Below, one piece after another: positions 444-64,000 of a stretch of DNA of 64,000 bases. A program made the position numbers and the translations under genes. The notes under the pieces are model-generated. The model searched no databases, was not told the origin of the DNA, and saw only the letters and a program-made list of their open reading frames with translations. Source of the stretch: a virus; the IMG/VR virus record IMGVR_UViG_3300037851_000757, positions 714 through 64,713 of that record; one strand, written 5' to 3'. How positions within the stretch are numbered: position 1 is the stretch's first letter; the number at the start of each line of letters is the position of its first letter.

Positions 444-682
444 GTTTTGAAAGCGAAAAAGTTATTCGCTTTTATAGACGAAAGTCAACCTAAAAAATTG
501 ACTATGGTCTATAGCACAATCGGCCCGGTATTAAAAATCGGCCGCCGTAGGGATACGGTTAGGTTGGCGGTTTAAAACTGAAAAACCGTTAGATAATAAT
601 GCTGGATACTATCCCTCTTGACCCCGATGCATTATTATCGAAGTCCCGTCTATATCCTGAGTCGCCAGAATCGGAGGTTTCT

Positions 683-901
683 ATGTTTCAAAAAATCCGA
701 TGGATACTCGGAGAGAATGTCAAACGCAATGATGTTATGTATGTAACCATTGATGGTATCGCGTTTACGTTGAACGGTATCGAAGCAATGATTCATAACC
801 TTCGACGCCGCAATGAGGAACTTGAGCTATCACTCAAGATAGCTCAGAACGCCTACCTTCGAGCTTCTGGTCATACCTTCAAAAAAATCGCCATCTCATA
901 A
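683..901 (+). CDS. Hypothetical protein with a C-terminal coiled coil
   Basis: Track ORF 599..901; GGAGGT precedes ATG 683 (MFQKI), the likely start. Confidence 0.6.
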   Translation: MFQKIRWILGENVKRNDVMYVTIDGIAFTLNGIEAMIHNLRRRNEELELSLKIAQNAYLRASGHTFKKIAIS

Positions 902-948
902 TGATTTTAAAATCATTCCGGCGACTCAGAATATAGACGGGATCGATT

Positions 949-973
949 TTGGCACCCAATAGATGGCCTCTCC
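949..973 (+). repeat. Left arm of a 25-bp inverted repeat flanking ParB-like gene 1
   Basis: TTGGCACCCAATAGATGGCCTCTCC is a 24/25 match to the reverse complement of 2212-2236. Confidence 0.85.
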
Positions 974-1012
974 AAAATGATTCTTAACATCTATCAAATT
1001 GGAGGTTCCACA

Positions 1013-2188
1013 ATGAAAGAGTATACATCAGCACTCCTTCCGATGAAGGCCATCTACATGGGGCGGAACGTCAGACTTCCGGCCTTGATGAAAATCGCGG
1101 AACTGGCGGCTGATATCGCGGAGAATGGCTTACTCACCCCGATTTTGGTCTATGAAGTGAAACCGAGGGGTTTCGAAGTCATTCAAGGCCATCGGCGGCT
1201 GCACTCCATTCAATCGTTGGCGGAGGAAGCCTTCGAGAAGCACTTCTCAAGAGGAATTCCGGTGACTGTCGTAACCGGCGTTACCTATGACGAGGCGCAG
1301 TTGATGAAGGTCGATCATGGCAACGAAGTCGGCCTCTCCGATCCGATGGAAATCCAACTTTGCGGGAATATCCTCTTCTCGCAGGGCAAATCGGAAAAGG
1401 AAGCAGTTATTCGCCTGGCGGCTCTGATGGATAGAATTAAGCCCATGAAGAGCGAGAAGCTGAAGAAGTACCAGACAATGCTGGCCGACGCCAAGCTGCT
1501 CACCATCAAGGGAATGACCGAGGAAGCAAAGGCCAAGCTGAAGGATGCCGAGGATTTCCTGTTCAACTACCGGCGCGGGTATATCCAGAACATTCACAAT
1601 GCCTGGAGATGCCCCACGGTGGTCATGGCGGCCTTGTACCTGAAAGCAACTGGCACGGCTCCTGAGAAGGGAACGGATTTCTTCACCGAGCAGAAGCTGC
1701 CCAAGGGGATTACTTACCAGCACGTCACGTCTCTTTGGAAGGCTTTTGAGAAGGATCTCACCCACAAGGATGAGACTGGGAAGCTGAAGTACAACAAGAC
1801 GCTGCCCGGTCCAGACTTTACCGCCAAGTGGAATGAGATCTGCACGGAGCTGAACAAAGCGGCCGAAGATTCCGAGAGCGGAGGAACTCGCGCCAAGGCG
1901 ATGTCGGCCGGTGACATGGAGAAGGAGTTGACGGAAGGAAAATGGCAGTCAAACGGCTTCCAGATGCTCACCCGCCATCACCGGAAAGAAGAAGGCGTTG
2001 ATACGGCCCGCCTCATGGCTCTGGACAAACTGGCCTTCCTGGCCGAGCTGTTGTCCGAGCGCGCTCCGAAAGAATGGGCCGACGCCGTGGAACTGGCCGA
2101 GGGCATCATCAAGATCCAGACCGAAGCCCAGACGCAAGCGGTTAGAGTGGAAGCTCCTGCAAGGGCTTCCGGTGGCAAGAAGAAATAA
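1013..2188 (+). CDS. ParB N-terminal (ParB/Srx fold) domain protein 1
   Basis: LAADIAENGLLTPILV...EVIQGHRRL motifs. GGAGG precedes ATG 1013 (track start 977). The C-terminal part is unrecognised. Confidence 0.8.
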   Translation: MKEYTSALLPMKAIYMGRNVRLPALMKIAELAADIAENGLLTPILVYEVKPRGFEVIQGHRRLHSIQSLAEEAFEKHFSRGIPVTVVTGVTYDEAQLMKVDHGNEVGLSDPMEIQLCGNILFSQGKSEKEAVIRLAALMDRIKPMKSEKLKKYQTMLADAKLLTIKGMTEEAKAKLKDAEDFLFNYRRGYIQNIHNAWRCPTVVMAALYLKATGTAPEKGTDFFTEQKLPKGITYQHVTSLWKAFEKDLTHKDETGKLKYNKTLPGPDFTAKWNEICTELNKAAEDSESGGTRAKAMSAGDMEKELTEGKWQSNGFQMLTRHHRKEEGVDTARLMALDKLAFLAELLSERAPKEWADAVELAEGIIKIQTEAQTQAVRVEAPARASGGKKK

Positions 2189-2211
2189 GCAGTTGATTCG
2201 GTAAATCAACC

Positions 2212-2241
2212 GGAGAGGCCATCTCTTGGGTGCCAAGATCC
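2212..2241 (-). repeat. Right arm of the inverted repeat; 2229-2241 is also complementary to 2506-2518
   Basis: GGAGAGGCCATCTCTTGGGTGCCAAGATCC read directly from the sequence. Confidence 0.85.
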
Positions 2242-2255
2242 AGAACGGAGAGCCT

Positions 2256-2462
2256 ATGGCAAATAGCATCGAAGTCTGCATCAAAACCTTTCTCGATGCC
2301 GAGAAGAAGGCAAAGATTGCAAACGATGAAGCCAAACGTGCCTTAAGAGACTTGATGGAAGTTGCGATTGATTATAGAGCAATTGGATTGCTCCAGCTCA
2401 ATCTTCCTGCTATCCGTCATCTTGAGAGGGACTTGTGGAGATTGTCCCAGGCTTCACAATAG
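2256..2462 (+). CDS. Small hypothetical protein
   Basis: Track ORF 2226..2462; GGAG precedes ATG 2256 (MANSIE). Confidence 0.6.
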   Translation: MANSIEVCIKTFLDAEKKAKIANDEAKRALRDLMEVAIDYRAIGLLQLNLPAIRHLERDLWRLSQASQ

Positions 2463-2617
2463 TAATGTTTCTTATCACGATAGTCGGGATGTTCCTATAA
2501 AAATCGGATCTTGGCACCTGTTATTTATAGCTTTTTAAAAAATAGCAGGACTGCGACCCCACGACTCCAGCAGTACTGCGCCCAAAAAATACCTCTTGAT
2601 TCTCAAATCAAACCTCC

Positions 2618-2648
2618 AGCGGCGGGCGTCGAGGGGTGCGCCGCTTTT
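2618..2648 (+). terminator. Possible intrinsic terminator of the rightward unit
   Basis: AGCGGCG...CGCCGCT stem followed by TTTT; the loop is long. Confidence 0.35.
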
Positions 2649-2996
2649 GGCTTCTTATAATGCGCCAGAATCGGGGCTGCGATTTTTAAACTACCTTTTG
2701 AAAAATTAATAAGGCGCGAGAGTGTGGCTGTGGGAAAAGAAAAACAGTTCTTTTAAACGAGATCTCCAGAATCAACATACCAGAATCAAAATCAAAGAGA
2801 TAGAACAGTAACATTTATTCAAAATGACAAAAAGTGTCTCACTAATATGAGACACCTTTTGCCAAAAAAGAGAAAAAACTCAACAAATTGATGCAGGTTT
2901 TTCGCCAATGTCTCACATTACTGGTCAATTTGAGACAATCTAACTTTCCTAATAATATCAGCAAGTTACCATTTTCTTACTAACTATTATAAAATT

Positions 2997-3023
2997 ATCT
3001 AATCTAATCTAATCTAATCTAAT
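2997..3023. repeat. (AATCT)n pentanucleotide tandem repeat in an AT-rich non-coding region
   Basis: ATCT AATCT AATCT AATCT AATCT AAT. Confidence 0.8.
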
Positions 3024-3206
3024 AAAAATATATATAGAGAATATAAATCCAGATAGTCTCAGAATCGGGTTTCCTAAGAATATCAGCGACTTAGCTATCT
3101 GGCAAGAAATTGCACGATAGAAAAATTTTCGGCGAAAACCTAAATCAATTTTTCGACTTTTTCCAAAAACTCGTCTAAAATTACTCAAATTTTTAATTAG
3201 AAAAAT

Positions 3207-3639: not shown

Positions 3640-4547
3640 AAAACCTCCAGCAATGCCGAATGCTTGTAGAGATTATCGAGAGCCTGTTGTTTCAGACTGT
3701 CTAAAACAACCCCCGATTTACAGGCTTCCCAAATAGACTGTATTCTTTTCCACAGGCCTATCTGAAATCCCTCAGAAATAGTGTTTCGATGAGACGCCAC
3801 TCTTATTACTGGAAACTGTCCTCCTCCCCTACAGCAAAGTTGGTGAACGGTTGTTAGAAATTCAGAGCCGACAGGGGTCCCAAGTATCCAAGAGTAAATG
3901 CTTAGTTGCGTCGCCCATGATTTATCAACATCTTCTAAAGGAAACGAAGAGACCATCAGCCCGTACCTCATTTTGGGCATCACGTCTTTATGGAAGCCCC
4001 GACGCTCGCCAGCATCATAAAGCTCCATGTACCCTTTTCGAGGAGAGGTAGTCTTAGAAGACATATACCCATTGACTTTCCAATCATGAACGATCTTACA
4101 CCCCGCCCGATTCTTGTAAAAAATATCAGGCTTTCCTAAAAGTACGACCCCGGCTTCCTCCTTTGTGTGCGCCACGCGATTCTCGATTTGAAACTCAAAA
4201 CGAGGCGTATCTTCCGCTCCTTGTAAGTCAAGCAAGAGATCTGCCAATGCCCCGGATTTCCGGTAGCACTCAAAAGCCCAGGCTCCATTTTGCATCGCCC
4301 AGTCTCTATTATGGCTCTCTACTTGATTTTCGAAAATCTCAACAAAGTCGAAACCGCGTAAGCTACCAAATAGAGAGCGCGTTAAAAAGCTCTTGACATA
4401 GGCATCAAAAGCAGCTCCAATAGCCATTGCTTGAGTTTGAGGAGTCCGAGGCGGACGAAAATCTGCAAGATACTGTAAATAAAATGCTTCTCGATCATCC
4501 TCCCATAACATAATTGCTGTGGGTGACAGGTAACGAATTTCCTTCAT
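3636..4547 (-). CDS. PD-(D/E)XK nuclease-family exonuclease
   Basis: YLSPTAI...C/D-x-FYLQY-type N-terminus, LLGKPD...IVHDWK catalytic pattern and QLSIY motif. Confidence 0.75.
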   Translation of the reverse strand: MKEIRYLSPTAIMLWEDDREAFYLQYLADFRPPRTPQTQAMAIGAAFDAYVKSFLTRSLFGSLRGFDFVEIFENQVESHNRDWAMQNGAWAFECYRKSGALADLLLDLQGAEDTPRFEFQIENRVAHTKEEAGVVLLGKPDIFYKNRAGCKIVHDWKVNGYMSSKTTSPRKGYMELYDAGERRGFHKDVMPKMRYGLMVSSFPLEDVDKSWATQLSIYSWILGTPVGSEFLTTVHQLCCRGGGQFPVIRVASHRNTISEGFQIGLWKRIQSIWEACKSGVVLDSLKQQALDNLYKHSALLEVL

Positions 4548-4834
4548 TTTATTCTCCTCCGAAGAATTTCAAGTTGTTCCTCCGCTTCCCCTATTCCTTT
4601 CTTTATCTGCTTCTTCAAGATTCCGAGTTCCGACTCTTCAATTTGTCGATTTACAGAATCAAGACGAGCAAGCAGGTTCATAATATGTTGCCAATGAGAC
4701 TTTAGTTCTGCTGCCCCTATATGCCCTTTGCAGATGTAACTCCCAGGCTCCAGATAGATCTCTGCTTCCTCACTTCCACAAAGAGCGCACAAAAAAGAAG
4801 TTTTTAGTTTGTCGATTTTTTGTTCGTTGTCCAT
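4544..4834 (-). CDS. Hypothetical protein with a Cys/His Zn-finger-like segment and a coiled coil
   Basis: CALC...CKGH followed by heptad-rich sequence. Confidence 0.6.
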   Translation of the reverse strand: MDNEQKIDKLKTSFLCALCGSEEAEIYLEPGSYICKGHIGAAELKSHWQHIMNLLARLDSVNRQIEESELGILKKQIKKGIGEAEEQLEILRRRIK

Positions 4835-13513: not shown

Positions 13514-14244
13514 TACTCTTTTTCCTTTCTCATTTTTTGTACCAGATTTCTAACAATTGTTTTCTTAAAAAGATCTGGTCGCTTTGCTACCATGACAGTT
13601 TTACGCAATTTTTGAAGAGCTTCTGTTAAAAGAATTGTTTCTCTATGATCTCCAAAATCATTCCAAGAGCGATATCGTTCCCATAGTTCATCACTTAAAA
13701 GGCTCTTAATTGCTTTGGCTGCTCGATATTCATTGTTGTAAATTTGCTCTATCCAATTAAAAGACTCATGTATTAGGCTCTTGTCTAATTCTTCAGCTTC
13801 TTCGTGAATATATAAATAATCTTCAGGGATTCCAGCTTCAGTTAATATTGGTAACATAAGTTGAATCAATTTTTTCATCTCTGGAATTAAAGCTTTTCGA
13901 GAAATCGACGTATGAGTTGTAGGATTTTCTTTAGCTTGTCTAAGGGCTAAAAGAAGCTCCATTTTTGAAAGTCTTGAATAATTAAGAACATAATACTTTC
14001 TTCCCATTTCCCTAAGTTGGACAGTTGTAAGGTCCCCTAATTCAAGAAAAGGATGATTTCGATACCAGTTTATAACTTCTTCTTTATTTTTTTGTTCAAC
14101 AAAGTTAAGAAGTTTTTCTTGTTGTGGCTCATCTGATAATATCCATAAGTTTTCAAAACTTGGACGCCCTATAATATATTCAATATTTCGGAGTGTTTTA
14201 ATCTTTTCATGAAGACGGGATCGAAGTTTTAACAATCTATCCAT
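13513..14244 (-). CDS. Protein containing a Rho N-terminal-like (HeH) domain
   Basis: LTTVQLREMGRKYYVLNYSRLSKMELLLAL matches the Rho_N pattern; GGAGG SD. Confidence 0.6.
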   Translation of the reverse strand: MDRLLKLRSRLHEKIKTLRNIEYIIGRPSFENLWILSDEPQQEKLLNFVEQKNKEEVINWYRNHPFLELGDLTTVQLREMGRKYYVLNYSRLSKMELLLALRQAKENPTTHTSISRKALIPEMKKLIQLMLPILTEAGIPEDYLYIHEEAEELDKSLIHESFNWIEQIYNNEYRAAKAIKSLLSDELWERYRSWNDFGDHRETILLTEALQKLRKTVMVAKRPDLFKKTIVRNLVQKMRKEKE

Positions 14245-22903: not shown

Positions 22904-22996
22904 ACAAAACCTCCTAAATTGTAGTTAGGCTCATTTGAGCCGATTCATAAATCGCGTATGCGCGTTTATTAAATGATTCTATAATCATAATTACAA

Positions 22997-63777: not shown

Positions 63778-63910
63778 CTGCAATTTTTTTCGCCGAAAAT
63801 CATGCGCAGAAATATGTGCATAGTGCTAAAAGGGTCATATTTGATTCGATAAATCTATTCTTTCTTTATAAAGTTTCTTTATAAAAATTCTTTATAAAAA
63901 AATTTTTTAG

Positions 63911-64000
63911 AAAAAATTTTTCTAAAAAATTTTTCTAAAAAATTTTTCTAAAAAATTTTTCTAAAAAATTTTTCTAAAAAATTTTTCTAAAAAATTTTTC
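63911..64000. repeat. Tandem repeat (AAAAAATTTTTCT) x7, running off the window
   Basis: Counted directly. It is preceded by three TTCTTTATAAA units at about 63862-63898. Confidence 0.9.

What the first reader, a model, noticed from the sequence alone, without database searches (positions are those of the whole stretch)
949..2518. ParB-like gene 1 is bracketed by 25-bp inverted repeats, with a third site competing for the right arm
Seen: A (949-973) matches the reverse complement of B (2212-2236) at 24/25. C (2506-2518, GGATCTTGGCACC) is perfectly complementary to 2229-2241, which overlaps B. A/B enclose exactly the ParB1 ORF, and B/C enclose exactly the next small ORF. The enclosed gene is GC-rich (34/60 in 1441-1500 versus 22/60 in 13981-14040). 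No recombinase is in the window and I see no target-site duplication. Inferences: mutually exclusive long-range mRNA stems (RNase III-type processing or a stability switch), invertible segments using a host recombinase, or ParB1 binding sites.
Basis: partly seen in the sequence, partly recalled or inferred. Interest (0 to 1): 0.7.

Follow-up and report, generated by a model that had tools for sequence, protein, structure and literature searches.

The report
Gene-bracketing RNA stems in phage operon
In a freshwater phage, three neighbouring genes are each enclosed by their own pair of complementary sequences, and 17 related phages keep this pairing although the paired letters and some enclosed genes have changed, which points to a conserved long-range mRNA fold that most likely lets a host double-strand RNase cut the operon transcript into single-gene messages with paired ends.

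Summary
A/B is a 29-nt inverted repeat (27/29) around the ParB-like gene. B/C (13/13) surrounds the next small gene.

A and the missed pair are the only long-range helices in the 64-kb window that beat every shuffle. All 17 distinct relatives (ParB-like protein 36-74% identical) have a 23-32 bp helix around the ParB-like gene, with unrelated arm sequences:
- 94.8% canonical pairs over 24 positions in 12 lineages
- at least three pair types at every position
- non-cognate arms mostly score at background

The flanking small genes are bracketed too (46 distinct brackets), even where the enclosed gene is unrelated. Non-Watson-Crick pairs favour G·U on the sense strand (35 to 9). The B/C competition recurs in six relative loci (at least five lineages).

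Best reading: sense-strand mRNA helices, probably host RNase III substrates that yield end-paired single-gene mRNAs. B:C would form only once A:B is cut. This mechanism is inferred, because no RNA data exist.

DNA inversion and ParB-binding sites are not supported. This scan noted a similar mRNA bracket on other DNA (e1-2745098). I rate it a new variant of a known kind.

The parts
571..600 (+). Weak sigma-70-like promoter candidate for the operon (TTTAAA, 18 nt, AATAAT)
   Evidence: 9 of 12 matches. This is a consensus match only and is not shown to be functional.
589..642 (+). Local hairpin in the leader (arms 589-602 / 629-642), directly upstream of the first bracket. The stretch next to the bracket (CCGATGCATT...) is conserved in L006, L010 and L022.
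   Evidence: I7, 14 nt, 93%; flank listing.
644..671 (+). Stem 1, 5' arm (ends 2 nt before the Shine-Dalgarno sequence of orfU)
   Evidence: I2, 28 nt, 26/28; score 59, above the shuffle maximum of 45; mean pair probability 0.82 in the 2.1-kb transcript fold.
683..901 (+). orfU, 72 aa, no known family. Homologues occupy this slot in L006, L008 and L022; unrelated genes occupy it in L010, L015, L016, L018 and L036.
915..942 (+). Stem 1, 3' arm (starts 13 nt after the orfU stop, ends 2 nt before stem 2)
   Evidence: cognate score 59, non-cognate 11-22.
945..973 (+).
   Evidence: z = 19; probability 0.94-0.98.
1013..2188 (+). ParB-like gene (391 aa): N-terminal ParB/Srx CTPase-type domain with a GHRR motif, the rest all-helical
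   Evidence: model with pLDDT 88; Foldseek matches to PadC, ParB, Noc and KorB.
2212..2240 (+). Stem 2, 3' arm = site B (starts 23 nt after the ParB-like stop)
2229..2241 (+). Stem 3, 5' arm: the outer 12 nt of B plus one more nt (ends 5 nt before the Shine-Dalgarno sequence of orfD)
   Evidence: z = 5.3; 0 of 300 shuffles reach it.
2256..2462 (+). orfD, 68 aa, helical, no known family. Homologues occupy this slot in L006 and L010; unrelated genes occupy it in six other lineages.
2506..2518 (+). Stem 3, 3' arm = site C, a near copy of the outer part of A
   Evidence: Pair probability is 0.013 in the intact transcript and 0.98-0.99 in an RNA that begins inside B.
2619..2650 (+). Intrinsic-terminator-like hairpin with a T run; probable 3' end of the operon transcript
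   Evidence: 2625-2642 and 2628-2651; reading of the sequence.

Best explanation
The inverted repeats are the two halves of long-range helices in the sense-strand mRNA of a small three-gene operon (orfU, ParB-like, orfD). Each cistron is closed by its own helix. The 5' arm sits a few nucleotides upstream of the cistron's Shine-Dalgarno sequence, and the 3' arm sits shortly after its stop codon. Stems 1 and 2 (28 and 29 bp, 2 nt apart) are long enough to be substrates of the host's double-strand-specific RNase III. The phage encodes no RNase III of its own. Staggered cuts in these stems would split the polycistronic transcript into single-gene mRNAs whose 5' and 3' ends stay paired in a half-stem. 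Such pairing would shield the ends from 5'-end-dependent and 3'-exonucleolytic decay and would make each gene's expression independent of its neighbours. The third site is part of the same device. In the intact transcript B pairs with A. Once stem 2 is cut, or A is lost, the freed outer half of B pairs with C and closes the orfD mRNA. Shown: that the helices exist, are conserved, covary, lie in a fixed geometry, and are thermodynamically predicted. Inferred: that they form in RNA (about 85% likely), that RNase III cuts them (about 55%), and the ordered A:B to B:C refolding (about 40%).
For: 1. Significance. Stems 1 and 2 are the only long-range helices in the window above every shuffle. Stem 2 has z = 19.
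2. Conservation of structure without sequence. All 17 distinct relatives (ParB-like protein 36-74% identical) have a 23-32 bp helix around the gene. Cognate flanks score 49-69. Non-cognate flanks score 13-25, except among close kin.
3. Covariation. With the helix bases aligned in 12 lineages, 94.8% of 288 cells are canonical pairs, every one of 24 positions shows at least 3 canonical pair types, and sliding the partner by 1-3 nt drops this to 36-49%.
4. Stem 1 behaves the same way: cognate 30-62, non-cognate 10-31.
5. Stem 3 is significant in the window and in six relative loci (z = 4.3-7.9). Its 5' arm always overlaps the outer 11-16 nt of stem 2's 3' arm.
6. The brackets persist although the enclosed small genes are unrelated in many lineages. 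L017 has seven consecutive bracketed cistrons.
7. Strand. With Watson-Crick-only scoring, 46 distinct brackets hold 925 WC, 35 G.U on the sense strand, 9 A.C and 27 other pairs (p = 1e-4). My hand count of non-shared events is about 24 to 9 (p about 0.015).
8. Geometry. The arms are never inside a coding sequence. The 5' arm usually ends 12-20 nt before the start codon, next to the Shine-Dalgarno sequence. The 3' arm starts 4-68 nt after the stop.
9. Folding the whole 2.1-kb transcript gives pair probabilities of 0.82 (stem 1), 0.94 (stem 2) and 0.013 (stem 3). An RNA that starts inside B gives stem 3 a probability of 0.85-0.99 in 5 of 6 lineages.
10. Precedent. RNase III cuts long-range intramolecular mRNA duplexes of 10-36 bp up to 505 nt apart in B. 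subtilis (PMC11780869), and cleavage-site pairs 16-1080 nt apart in E. coli (PMC6212723).
Against: There is no RNA evidence of any kind: no RNA run holds the sequence, and only assembled DNA contigs could be laid. The host is unknown, so the presence and specificity of its RNase III are assumed. Predicting the fold of a 2-kb RNA is unreliable, and coupled transcription and translation could prevent pairing across 1.2 kb. The G.U over A.C excess is moderate and is reversed in the window's own stem 1, which has two A.C and no G.U. A first count with looser helix ends was not significant (43:30, p = 0.16). In relatives whose arrays reuse identical arms, the minimum-energy fold prefers local hairpins between adjacent arms plus one outer bracket, so the per-gene bracket is not the only possible fold there. 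Stem 3 is absent in the three most distant lineages tested for it (L024, L026, L036) and was not predicted in L016.
Confidence: 0.55

Rival explanations
1. The helices form in the mRNA but are not cleaved. They act as structural closures or insulators, like the 5'/3'-UTR pairings of B. subtilis hbs or S. aureus icaR. They would hold each cistron's ends together, present the Shine-Dalgarno sequence at the mouth of a helix, block access by RNase E/Y/J, and tune translation. B:C versus B:A would be an equilibrium switch rather than a step that follows cleavage.
For: All the structural evidence is the same. The 5' arms abut the Shine-Dalgarno sequence (2-8 nt in most brackets). Many flanking brackets are only 13-19 bp, which is short for efficient RNase III cleavage. 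Most stem 2 helices carry a conserved central mismatch that splits them into about 14 + 10-15 bp (position 15 non-canonical in 7 of 12). Precedent: a 14-bp 5'/3'-UTR pairing modulates RNase Y cleavage of hbs mRNA (PMC5737220), and icaR is a further case (PMC3868564).
Against: By established knowledge of the enzyme, helices of 25-32 bp are expected RNase III substrates in almost any bacterium. B:C has a probability of only 0.013 in the intact transcript, so an equilibrium switch would rarely populate it without cleavage or loss of A.
Confidence: 0.22
2. The arms are primarily DNA-level recombination points that let small genes be exchanged between phages, comparable to the PeSL promoter/stem-loop cassettes of T4-type phages or to integron attC sites. 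On this view the complementarity is secondary.
For: The cargo of the flanking slots differs between close relatives while the arms stay the same (for example L015 and L016 share arms, but their orfU genes are unrelated). In L017, L008, L039 and L040 the same arm sequences are reused along arrays of small genes. PeSL-mediated shuffling is documented (PMC2839356, PMC4122927).
Against: In the window, the arms of stems 1 and 2 are unique, so they offer no repeats for homologous exchange. The ParB-like gene is never exchanged, yet it has the longest and most strongly covarying helix. Direct repeats would serve recombination; here inverted complementarity is what is conserved, including pairs that are G.U only on the sense strand. 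There is no promoter consensus inside the elements and no integrase or resolvase in the phage. Gene exchange may be a by-product of the repeated arms rather than their function.
Confidence: 0.08
3. The repeats are binding sites of the ParB-like protein (parS-like or operator-like sites).
For: The enclosed protein has a ParB/Noc/KorB-type N-terminal domain. A, B and C share a 12-nt word found only three times in the window.
Against: The arms are unrelated in sequence between phages whose ParB-like proteins are 36-74% identical. One phage carries three different arm pairs. The individual arms are not palindromes like parS, NBS or OB sites. Unrelated small genes are bracketed in the same way. The 12-nt word reached 3 copies in 3 of 100 shuffles.
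Confidence: 0.03
4. The pairs are recombination sites of invertible DNA segments flipped by a host recombinase.
For: Inverted repeats of 13-29 bp flank whole genes, which is formally the anatomy of an invertible segment.
Against: No recombinase is encoded in the phage. Every pair has a different sequence, and the sequences differ between relatives, which does not fit recognition by one recombinase. All 17 lineages and both DNA runs show one orientation, although contigs cannot exclude rare variants. Inversion would uncouple the genes from their promoter.
Confidence: 0.02

Closest known systems
RNase III processing stems that bracket 16S and 23S rRNA in bacterial rRNA operon precursors (established knowledge)
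   Same: The sequences flanking each functional unit of a polycistronic transcript pair over 1-3 kb into helices of about 20-30 bp. Successive units each have their own helix, and cleavage releases the units.
   Different: Here the enclosed units are protein-coding cistrons of a phage. The arms abut the Shine-Dalgarno sequence and the stop codon. A third arm competes for one helix half. Cleavage is not demonstrated.
RNase III sites between the early genes of phage T7 (R0.3, R0.5, R1, R1.1, R1.3; established knowledge)
   Same: A phage polycistronic mRNA is cut between every cistron by host RNase III, and the remaining structures stabilise the products. Internal mismatches or loops are part of the sites.
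   Different: The T7 sites are local hairpins in the spacers. Here the two strands of each helix lie on opposite sides of a gene, so the products would have paired 5' and 3' ends.
Long-range intramolecular RNase III targets in bacterial mRNAs (B. subtilis, PMC11780869; E. coli, PMC6212723)
   Same: Duplexes of 10-36 bp form between mRNA segments hundreds of nucleotides apart and are cut with a 2-nt stagger.
   Different: Those cases are scattered and often lie inside coding sequences. In the text I read they are not described as arranged one per cistron, or with a competing third arm. The loop here reaches 1.2-1.45 kb.
5'/3'-UTR pairing of single mRNAs: B. subtilis hbs (14 bp, PMC5737220) and S. 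aureus icaR (PMC3868564)
   Same: Pairing of the 5' and 3' untranslated ends of one message controls nuclease access and translation.
   Different: Those are monocistronic host genes with short pairings that overlap the RBS or a cleavage site. Here there is an array of 13-32 bp brackets in one operon, and the Shine-Dalgarno sequence is left free.
PeSL mobile regulatory cassettes of T4-type phages (PMC2839356, PMC4122927)
   Same: Repeated intergenic stem-loop elements border small exchangeable ORFs in variable regions of phage genomes.
   Different: PeSLs are local promoter-plus-terminator motifs repeated in direct orientation, and they act through DNA homology. Here the conserved property is complementarity across a gene, with unique arms in the window and no promoter motif.
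ORF-bearing intervening sequences of 23S rRNA, and the IVS-like bracketed cassettes noted by this scan (e1-2474415 and sister notes)
   Same: A small gene is enclosed by a long stem that RNase III is thought to cut.
   Different: orfU and orfD gave no Pfam match at E <= 0.01, so they do not match the PF05635 four-helix-bundle family. The arms are not arrays of short repeats. The large ParB-like gene is bracketed as well.

Membership tests
RNase III processing helix | Double-stranded RNA helix of about two turns (>= 20 bp), mismatches tolerated | tested here: met
   Stem 1 is 28 bp (26 WC + 2 A.C). Stem 2 is 29 bp (27 WC + 1 G.U + 1 mismatch). Both are predicted in the full-length fold. Stem 3 (13 bp) does not meet this.
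RNase III processing helix | Pairing maintained by compensatory change (a selected RNA structure) | tested here: met
RNase III processing helix | RNase III-dependent paired cleavages with a 2-nt 3' overhang | not testable with these tools
   No RNA run is listed; only DNA contigs could be laid.
RNase III processing helix | An RNase III available in the infected cell | tested here: inconclusive
   The phage encodes none (PF14622 and PF00636 absent). The host is unknown. RNase III rang in 8-9 of the 14 control genomes, all but one of them bacteria.
Invertible DNA segment (inverton) | A site-specific recombinase encoded nearby | tested here: not met
   No PF00239 or PF00589 match in the 64.75-kb record.
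Invertible DNA segment (inverton) | Both orientations present in the population | tested here: inconclusive
   Only the reference orientation appears in two DNA runs (contigs only) and in all 17 relatives.
ParB-binding site (parS / NBS / OB type) | A conserved, roughly 16-bp palindromic sequence shared among phages with homologous ParB | tested here: not met
   The arms are not palindromes and are unrelated between relatives.
PeSL-type mobile regulatory cassette | Composite early promoter plus local stem-loop, repeated in direct orientation at the borders of exchanged ORFs | tested here: not met
   In the window the arms of stems 1 and 2 are unique, and no promoter consensus lies within them except a weak 9/12 match in A. 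Relatives do reuse arms at the borders of exchanged ORFs.
Transposon or MITE terminal inverted repeats | Target-site duplication, and terminal repeats conserved among copies | tested here: not met
   No direct repeat flanks any pair in the window. The arms differ between lineages while synteny is fixed.
Integron attC cassette | IntI integrase and R''/R' core sites (GTTRRRY) | tested here: not met
   No tyrosine recombinase. No core-site motif is seen in the arms listed.
ParB/Srx superfamily (the enclosed protein) | N-terminal ParB/Srx fold with the GxxR nucleotide-binding motif | tested here: met
   PF02195 scores 24.6 bits, just under the 26.3 cut-off. A profile of 29 homologues hits Noc and ParB chains. 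Foldseek gives probability 1.0 to PadC, ParB, Noc and KorB. G59, H60 and R62 are invariant and R61 is nearly invariant (GHRR motif).

The most novel reading that the evidence does not exclude
The operon is built from modular bracket units (5' arm, Shine-Dalgarno sequence, ORF, 3' arm) that act as natural cistron insulators. Host RNase III cuts every unit free as an end-paired mRNA. One surplus arm (C here, the last R-type arm in relatives) lets the whole chain of pairings shift by one register after the first cut. Because expression of a unit does not depend on its neighbours, unrelated genes can be swapped into the slots. This would be a previously undescribed way of organising and evolving a phage operon.
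Probability: 0.3. Interest if true: 0.8.

Novelty: new variant of a known kind. Interest (0 to 1): 0.7.

Why it matters
Long-range pairing in bacterial mRNAs has only recently been mapped. It is usually seen as scattered single cases, and few have comparative support. This locus offers 46 naturally varied brackets in 17 phage lineages, with clear compensatory evolution, a fixed geometry relative to the Shine-Dalgarno sequence and the stop codon, and a conserved competing arm. That makes it a ready-made natural experiment on three questions: how 5'-3' end pairing and RNase III processing set the expression of individual cistrons, how such helices survive 1.2 kb of translated sequence between their arms, and whether insulating each cistron makes gene exchange easier. 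It also resembles the processing elements that synthetic biologists insert between cistrons to remove context effects, so the arms could serve as portable parts. The finding concerns an uncultured freshwater phage and has no bearing on pathogenicity.

Tried and rejected
- BLAST of 500-3200 against the phage and plasmid collections found no match.
- A single-protein scan of viral contigs found nothing. The alignment-based scans did.
- Rfam at a permissive threshold gave only two chance-level hits outside the operon.
- Sequencing runs: no RNA holder was listed. The two DNA holders are probably the source samples and are kept as contigs. They show only the reference arrangement, plus a meaningless 21-28 nt partial match from another contig.
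- RNAduplex on 110-nt flanks over-extended the helices and was replaced by an ungapped helix search.
- The first G.U versus A.C count used strand-symmetric extension and included noisy helix ends. It was not significant (43:30, p = 0.16). The count reported uses Watson-Crick-only scoring on 46 brackets.
- L035 and L037 at first seemed to lack stem 2. The true gene start lies upstream of the tblastn match, and both have a 27-bp helix.
- Sigma-54 or sigma-70 promoter reading of TTGGCAC in A and C: only a weak 9/12 sigma-70 match in A, and the word is not conserved in relatives.
- The 16-bp palindrome at 901-916 as a parS candidate: it has no other close copy in the window and is not conserved in relatives.
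- PADLOC gave one sub-threshold hit for the ParB-like protein (PD-Lambda-5_A, E = 0.0033) and nothing for the two small proteins. PHROGs gave only the ParB label for the large protein and one sub-threshold hit of unknown function for orfU.
- I made a full MAFFT alignment of the 17 bracketed ParB units (A2). Its ends are in register for the outer 12 pairs in all rows but L035. I did not run the count of structure pairs on it, because that needs a typed 1817-character structure string. The equivalent counts with slid-partner controls were computed.
Full report
**What is in the sequence**

The window is nearly the whole of a 64.75-kb uncultured freshwater phage record with direct terminal repeats. 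Near its left end three genes lie on the + strand between leftward-transcribed neighbours:
- orfU (683-901, 72 aa)
- a ParB-like gene (1013-2188, 391 aa)
- orfD (2256-2462, 68 aa)

Each has a GGAG-type Shine-Dalgarno sequence.

A/B is 945-973 / 2212-2240 (29 nt, 27/29). B'/C is 2229-2241 / 2506-2518 (13/13). This pair encloses orfU and ends 2 nt before A. So every cistron of the operon sits between its own pair of complementary arms. All arms lie in untranslated spacers. A terminator-like hairpin with a T run follows at about 2619-2650, and a weak promoter-like site lies at 571-600.

**Is it more than chance?**

The best Watson-Crick helix between the two flanks of the ParB-like gene scores 63, against 17.2 +/- 2.4 for shuffled flanks. 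In a scan of the whole window for helices with loops of 40-4000 nt, only the stems around orfU (59) and the ParB-like gene (63) exceed the maximum of 20 composition-preserving block shuffles (45). The one exception is an A/T tandem repeat at the far end. B/C scores 36, against 19.4 +/- 3.1, and 0 of 300 shuffles reach it. The feature is real and confined to this operon.

**Relatives**

The ParB-like protein has 31 homologues in metagenomes (37-74% identity). I recovered the DNA around them from Logan, JGI, ENA and IMG/VR, which gave 17 distinct lineages. Synteny is conserved: small + strand genes flank the ParB-like gene, and leftward PD-(D/E)XK-like and FkbM-methyltransferase genes lie downstream, as in the window.

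Every lineage has a 23-32 bp helix formed by the two flanks of the ParB-like gene. Two lineages seemed to lack it only because the true start codon lies upstream of the tblastn match.

The arm sequences are unrelated between lineages. Cognate flanks score 49-69. Non-cognate flanks score 13-25, except among close kin. By eye there are at least nine unrelated arm classes.

With the helices aligned at their base in 12 lineages:
- 94.8% of the 288 cells are canonical pairs.
- Each of the 24 positions shows at least three different canonical pair types.
- Sliding the partner by 1-3 nt lowers pairing to 36-49%.

Position 15 from the base is a mismatch in 7 of 12 lineages (T.C in the window). In L006 and L008 the mismatch lies at positions 10-11 instead. 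A central imperfection therefore seems to be part of the design.

**The flanking brackets**

The helix around the upstream small gene is present wherever enough sequence was available (14-28 bp; cognate 30-62, non-cognate 10-31). It lies 0-4 nt from stem 2 in most lineages and 13-14 nt in one clade.

The helix around the downstream gene is significant in the window and in L006, L008, L010, L014/L016/L017 and L018 (z = 4.3-7.9). It is not significant in the most distant lineages L024, L026 and L036.

In every positive case its 5' arm overlaps the outer 11-16 nt of stem 2's 3' arm and runs 1-10 nt beyond it.

The enclosed small genes are often not homologous:
- orfU belongs to one family in the window, L006, L008 and L022. 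The slot holds unrelated proteins in L010, L015, L016, L018 and L036.
- orfD is one family in the window, L006 and L010, and is unrelated elsewhere.

L015 and L016 share arms but carry different genes.

Some relatives have whole arrays. L017 has seven consecutive bracketed cistrons: three upstream of the ParB-like gene, the ParB-like gene itself, and three downstream. L039 and L040 have four brackets each. In those arrays the arm sequence is reused, so local hairpins between adjacent arms are also possible, and the minimum-energy fold prefers them. However, slot-specific inner pairs make the per-gene bracket 2-3 bp longer than the local alternative. In L017 the inner pairs are TC/GA in one slot and GGG/CCC in the next. 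Downstream of the ParB-like gene there is always one more arm of the C type than of the B type, so two pairing registers exist.

**RNA or DNA?**

The arms are never inside coding sequence. The 5' arm usually ends 12-20 nt before the start codon, right next to the Shine-Dalgarno sequence. The 3' arm starts 4-68 nt after the stop. This geometry makes sense for an mRNA element and has no obvious meaning for DNA.

With Watson-Crick-only scoring, which treats G.U and A.C alike, 46 distinct brackets contain 925 WC pairs, 35 G.U on the sense strand, 9 A.C (which would be G.U on the antisense strand) and 27 other mismatches (binomial p = 1e-4). After I removed events shared by close kin by hand, the ratio is about 24 to 9 (p about 0.015). 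The signal is strongest in the downstream brackets, whose 3' arms carry T where a C would give a Watson-Crick pair. The window's own stem 1 goes the other way, with two A.C pairs, and an earlier, looser count was not significant. So the strand test supports sense-strand RNA but is not decisive alone.

Against DNA-level readings:
- The phage has no resolvase or tyrosine recombinase.
- Each pair has its own sequence.
- All lineages and both DNA runs show a single orientation (these are contigs only).
- No target-site duplications are seen.

**Predicted folding**

Folding the presumed 2.1-kb transcript (560-2660) gives mean pair probabilities of 0.82 for stem 1, 0.94 for stem 2 and 0.013 for B:C. 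An RNA that begins in the middle of B, as it would after a cut in stem 2, forms B:C with probability 0.98-0.99 in the window and 0.85-0.98 in L006, L008, L010 and L018, but not in L016. B:C is therefore best seen as a structure that forms after A has been removed.

**Mechanism proposed**

Stems 1 and 2 are 28-29 bp of nearly perfect duplex, the classical substrate of bacterial RNase III. The phage has no RNase III gene, so a host enzyme would act. Staggered cuts would release orfU and ParB-like mRNAs whose ends stay paired in half-stems. The outer half of B would then become the 5' end of the orfD mRNA and would pair with C. This both closes that message and frees it from the complementary tail left on the orfU mRNA.

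Published work shows that such long-range duplexes are real RNase III targets in mRNAs. In B. subtilis they are 10-36 bp duplexes up to 505 nt apart (PMC11780869). In E. coli the distances are 16-1080 nt (PMC6212723). End-to-end UTR pairing can also control decay without RNase III (hbs, PMC5737220; icaR, PMC3868564). That non-cleavage variant is my main rival explanation.

The exchange of genes within conserved brackets resembles the PeSL cassettes of T4-type phages (PMC2839356, PMC4122927). I regard it as a likely consequence of the brackets rather than their purpose.

**The enclosed protein**

The ParB-like protein folds confidently (pLDDT 88). Its N-terminal domain matches the CTP-binding ParB/Noc/KorB/PadC fold, with a conserved GHRR motif. 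The remaining ~290 residues are helical and have no clear match. This neither requires nor excludes DNA binding. But the arms cannot be its conserved binding sites, because they share no sequence between phages.

**Verdict**

The other two are not.
- What is established is a conserved, covarying architecture with one bracket per cistron and a conserved competing arm.
- What is inferred is its action through RNase III and the ordered refolding.
- In the literature I could search, I found no description of a phage or bacterial operon organised this way.
- The scan has noted a related "paired-end mRNA bracket" on other DNA (e1-2745098).
- I class it as a new variant of a known kind (long-range RNase III or UTR-pairing helices), of fairly high interest.

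Noticed in passing
window 901-916: A perfect 16-bp palindrome (ATGATTTTAAAATCAT) overlaps the orfU stop codon and the first bases of stem 1's 3' arm. It has no other close copy in the window (nearest has 2 mismatches, at 22973) and is not conserved in relatives.
   Followed up: partly
window 665-674, 2665-2674, 2766-2775, 2780-2789: Four of the six copies of CCAGAATCRR in the window (0.7 expected) lie in or just downstream of this operon, all on the + strand. One is inside stem 1's 5' arm and three lie after the terminator. This may be a regulator-binding word.
   Followed up: partly
window 2893-2908 and 3127-3141; L010 3674-3699 / 3958-3983: An imperfect inverted repeat built on CAGGTTTTTCG(G)C lies between the operon and the leftward genes. 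The same word forms a 26-nt, 96% inverted repeat at the matching place in L010. It is conserved in sequence rather than covarying, so it is more likely a protein-binding or promoter/terminator element.
   Followed up: no
window 2576-2612; L006 and L010 downstream of their C arms: A conserved stretch (GCG(C/T)CC ... TTGATT(T/C)C.AAAT) follows the last arm in three lineages whose arms differ. Its function is unknown.
   Followed up: no
window 2999-3022 and 63878-63999: A short (AATCT)n run, and a 13-nt-period A/T tandem array at the right end of the window near the terminal repeat.
   Followed up: no
L018 610-876: In this relative the upstream bracket encloses an 88-aa protein that looks like a stand-alone ParB N-terminal domain (GNRR motif). 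It may be a partial duplicate of the neighbouring ParB-like gene.
   Followed up: no
L008 about 4745-4808; L017 about 4520-4575: The last bracket of the downstream arrays encloses, besides a 60-aa gene, a tiny hydrophobic ORF of about 20 aa. A strong terminator hairpin follows.
   Followed up: no
L015-L019, L017 1549-1560, 1901-1912, 2138-2148, 2448-2460: A fixed linker (TAATGACACAG[GG]) precedes every 5' arm of the upstream array and also precedes the 5' arm of the ParB bracket. It would form the loop of the alternative local hairpins.
   Followed up: partly
window 2825-2864 (- strand): A strong 18-pair terminator-like hairpin on the minus strand lies between the operon and the leftward gene block.
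   Followed up: no
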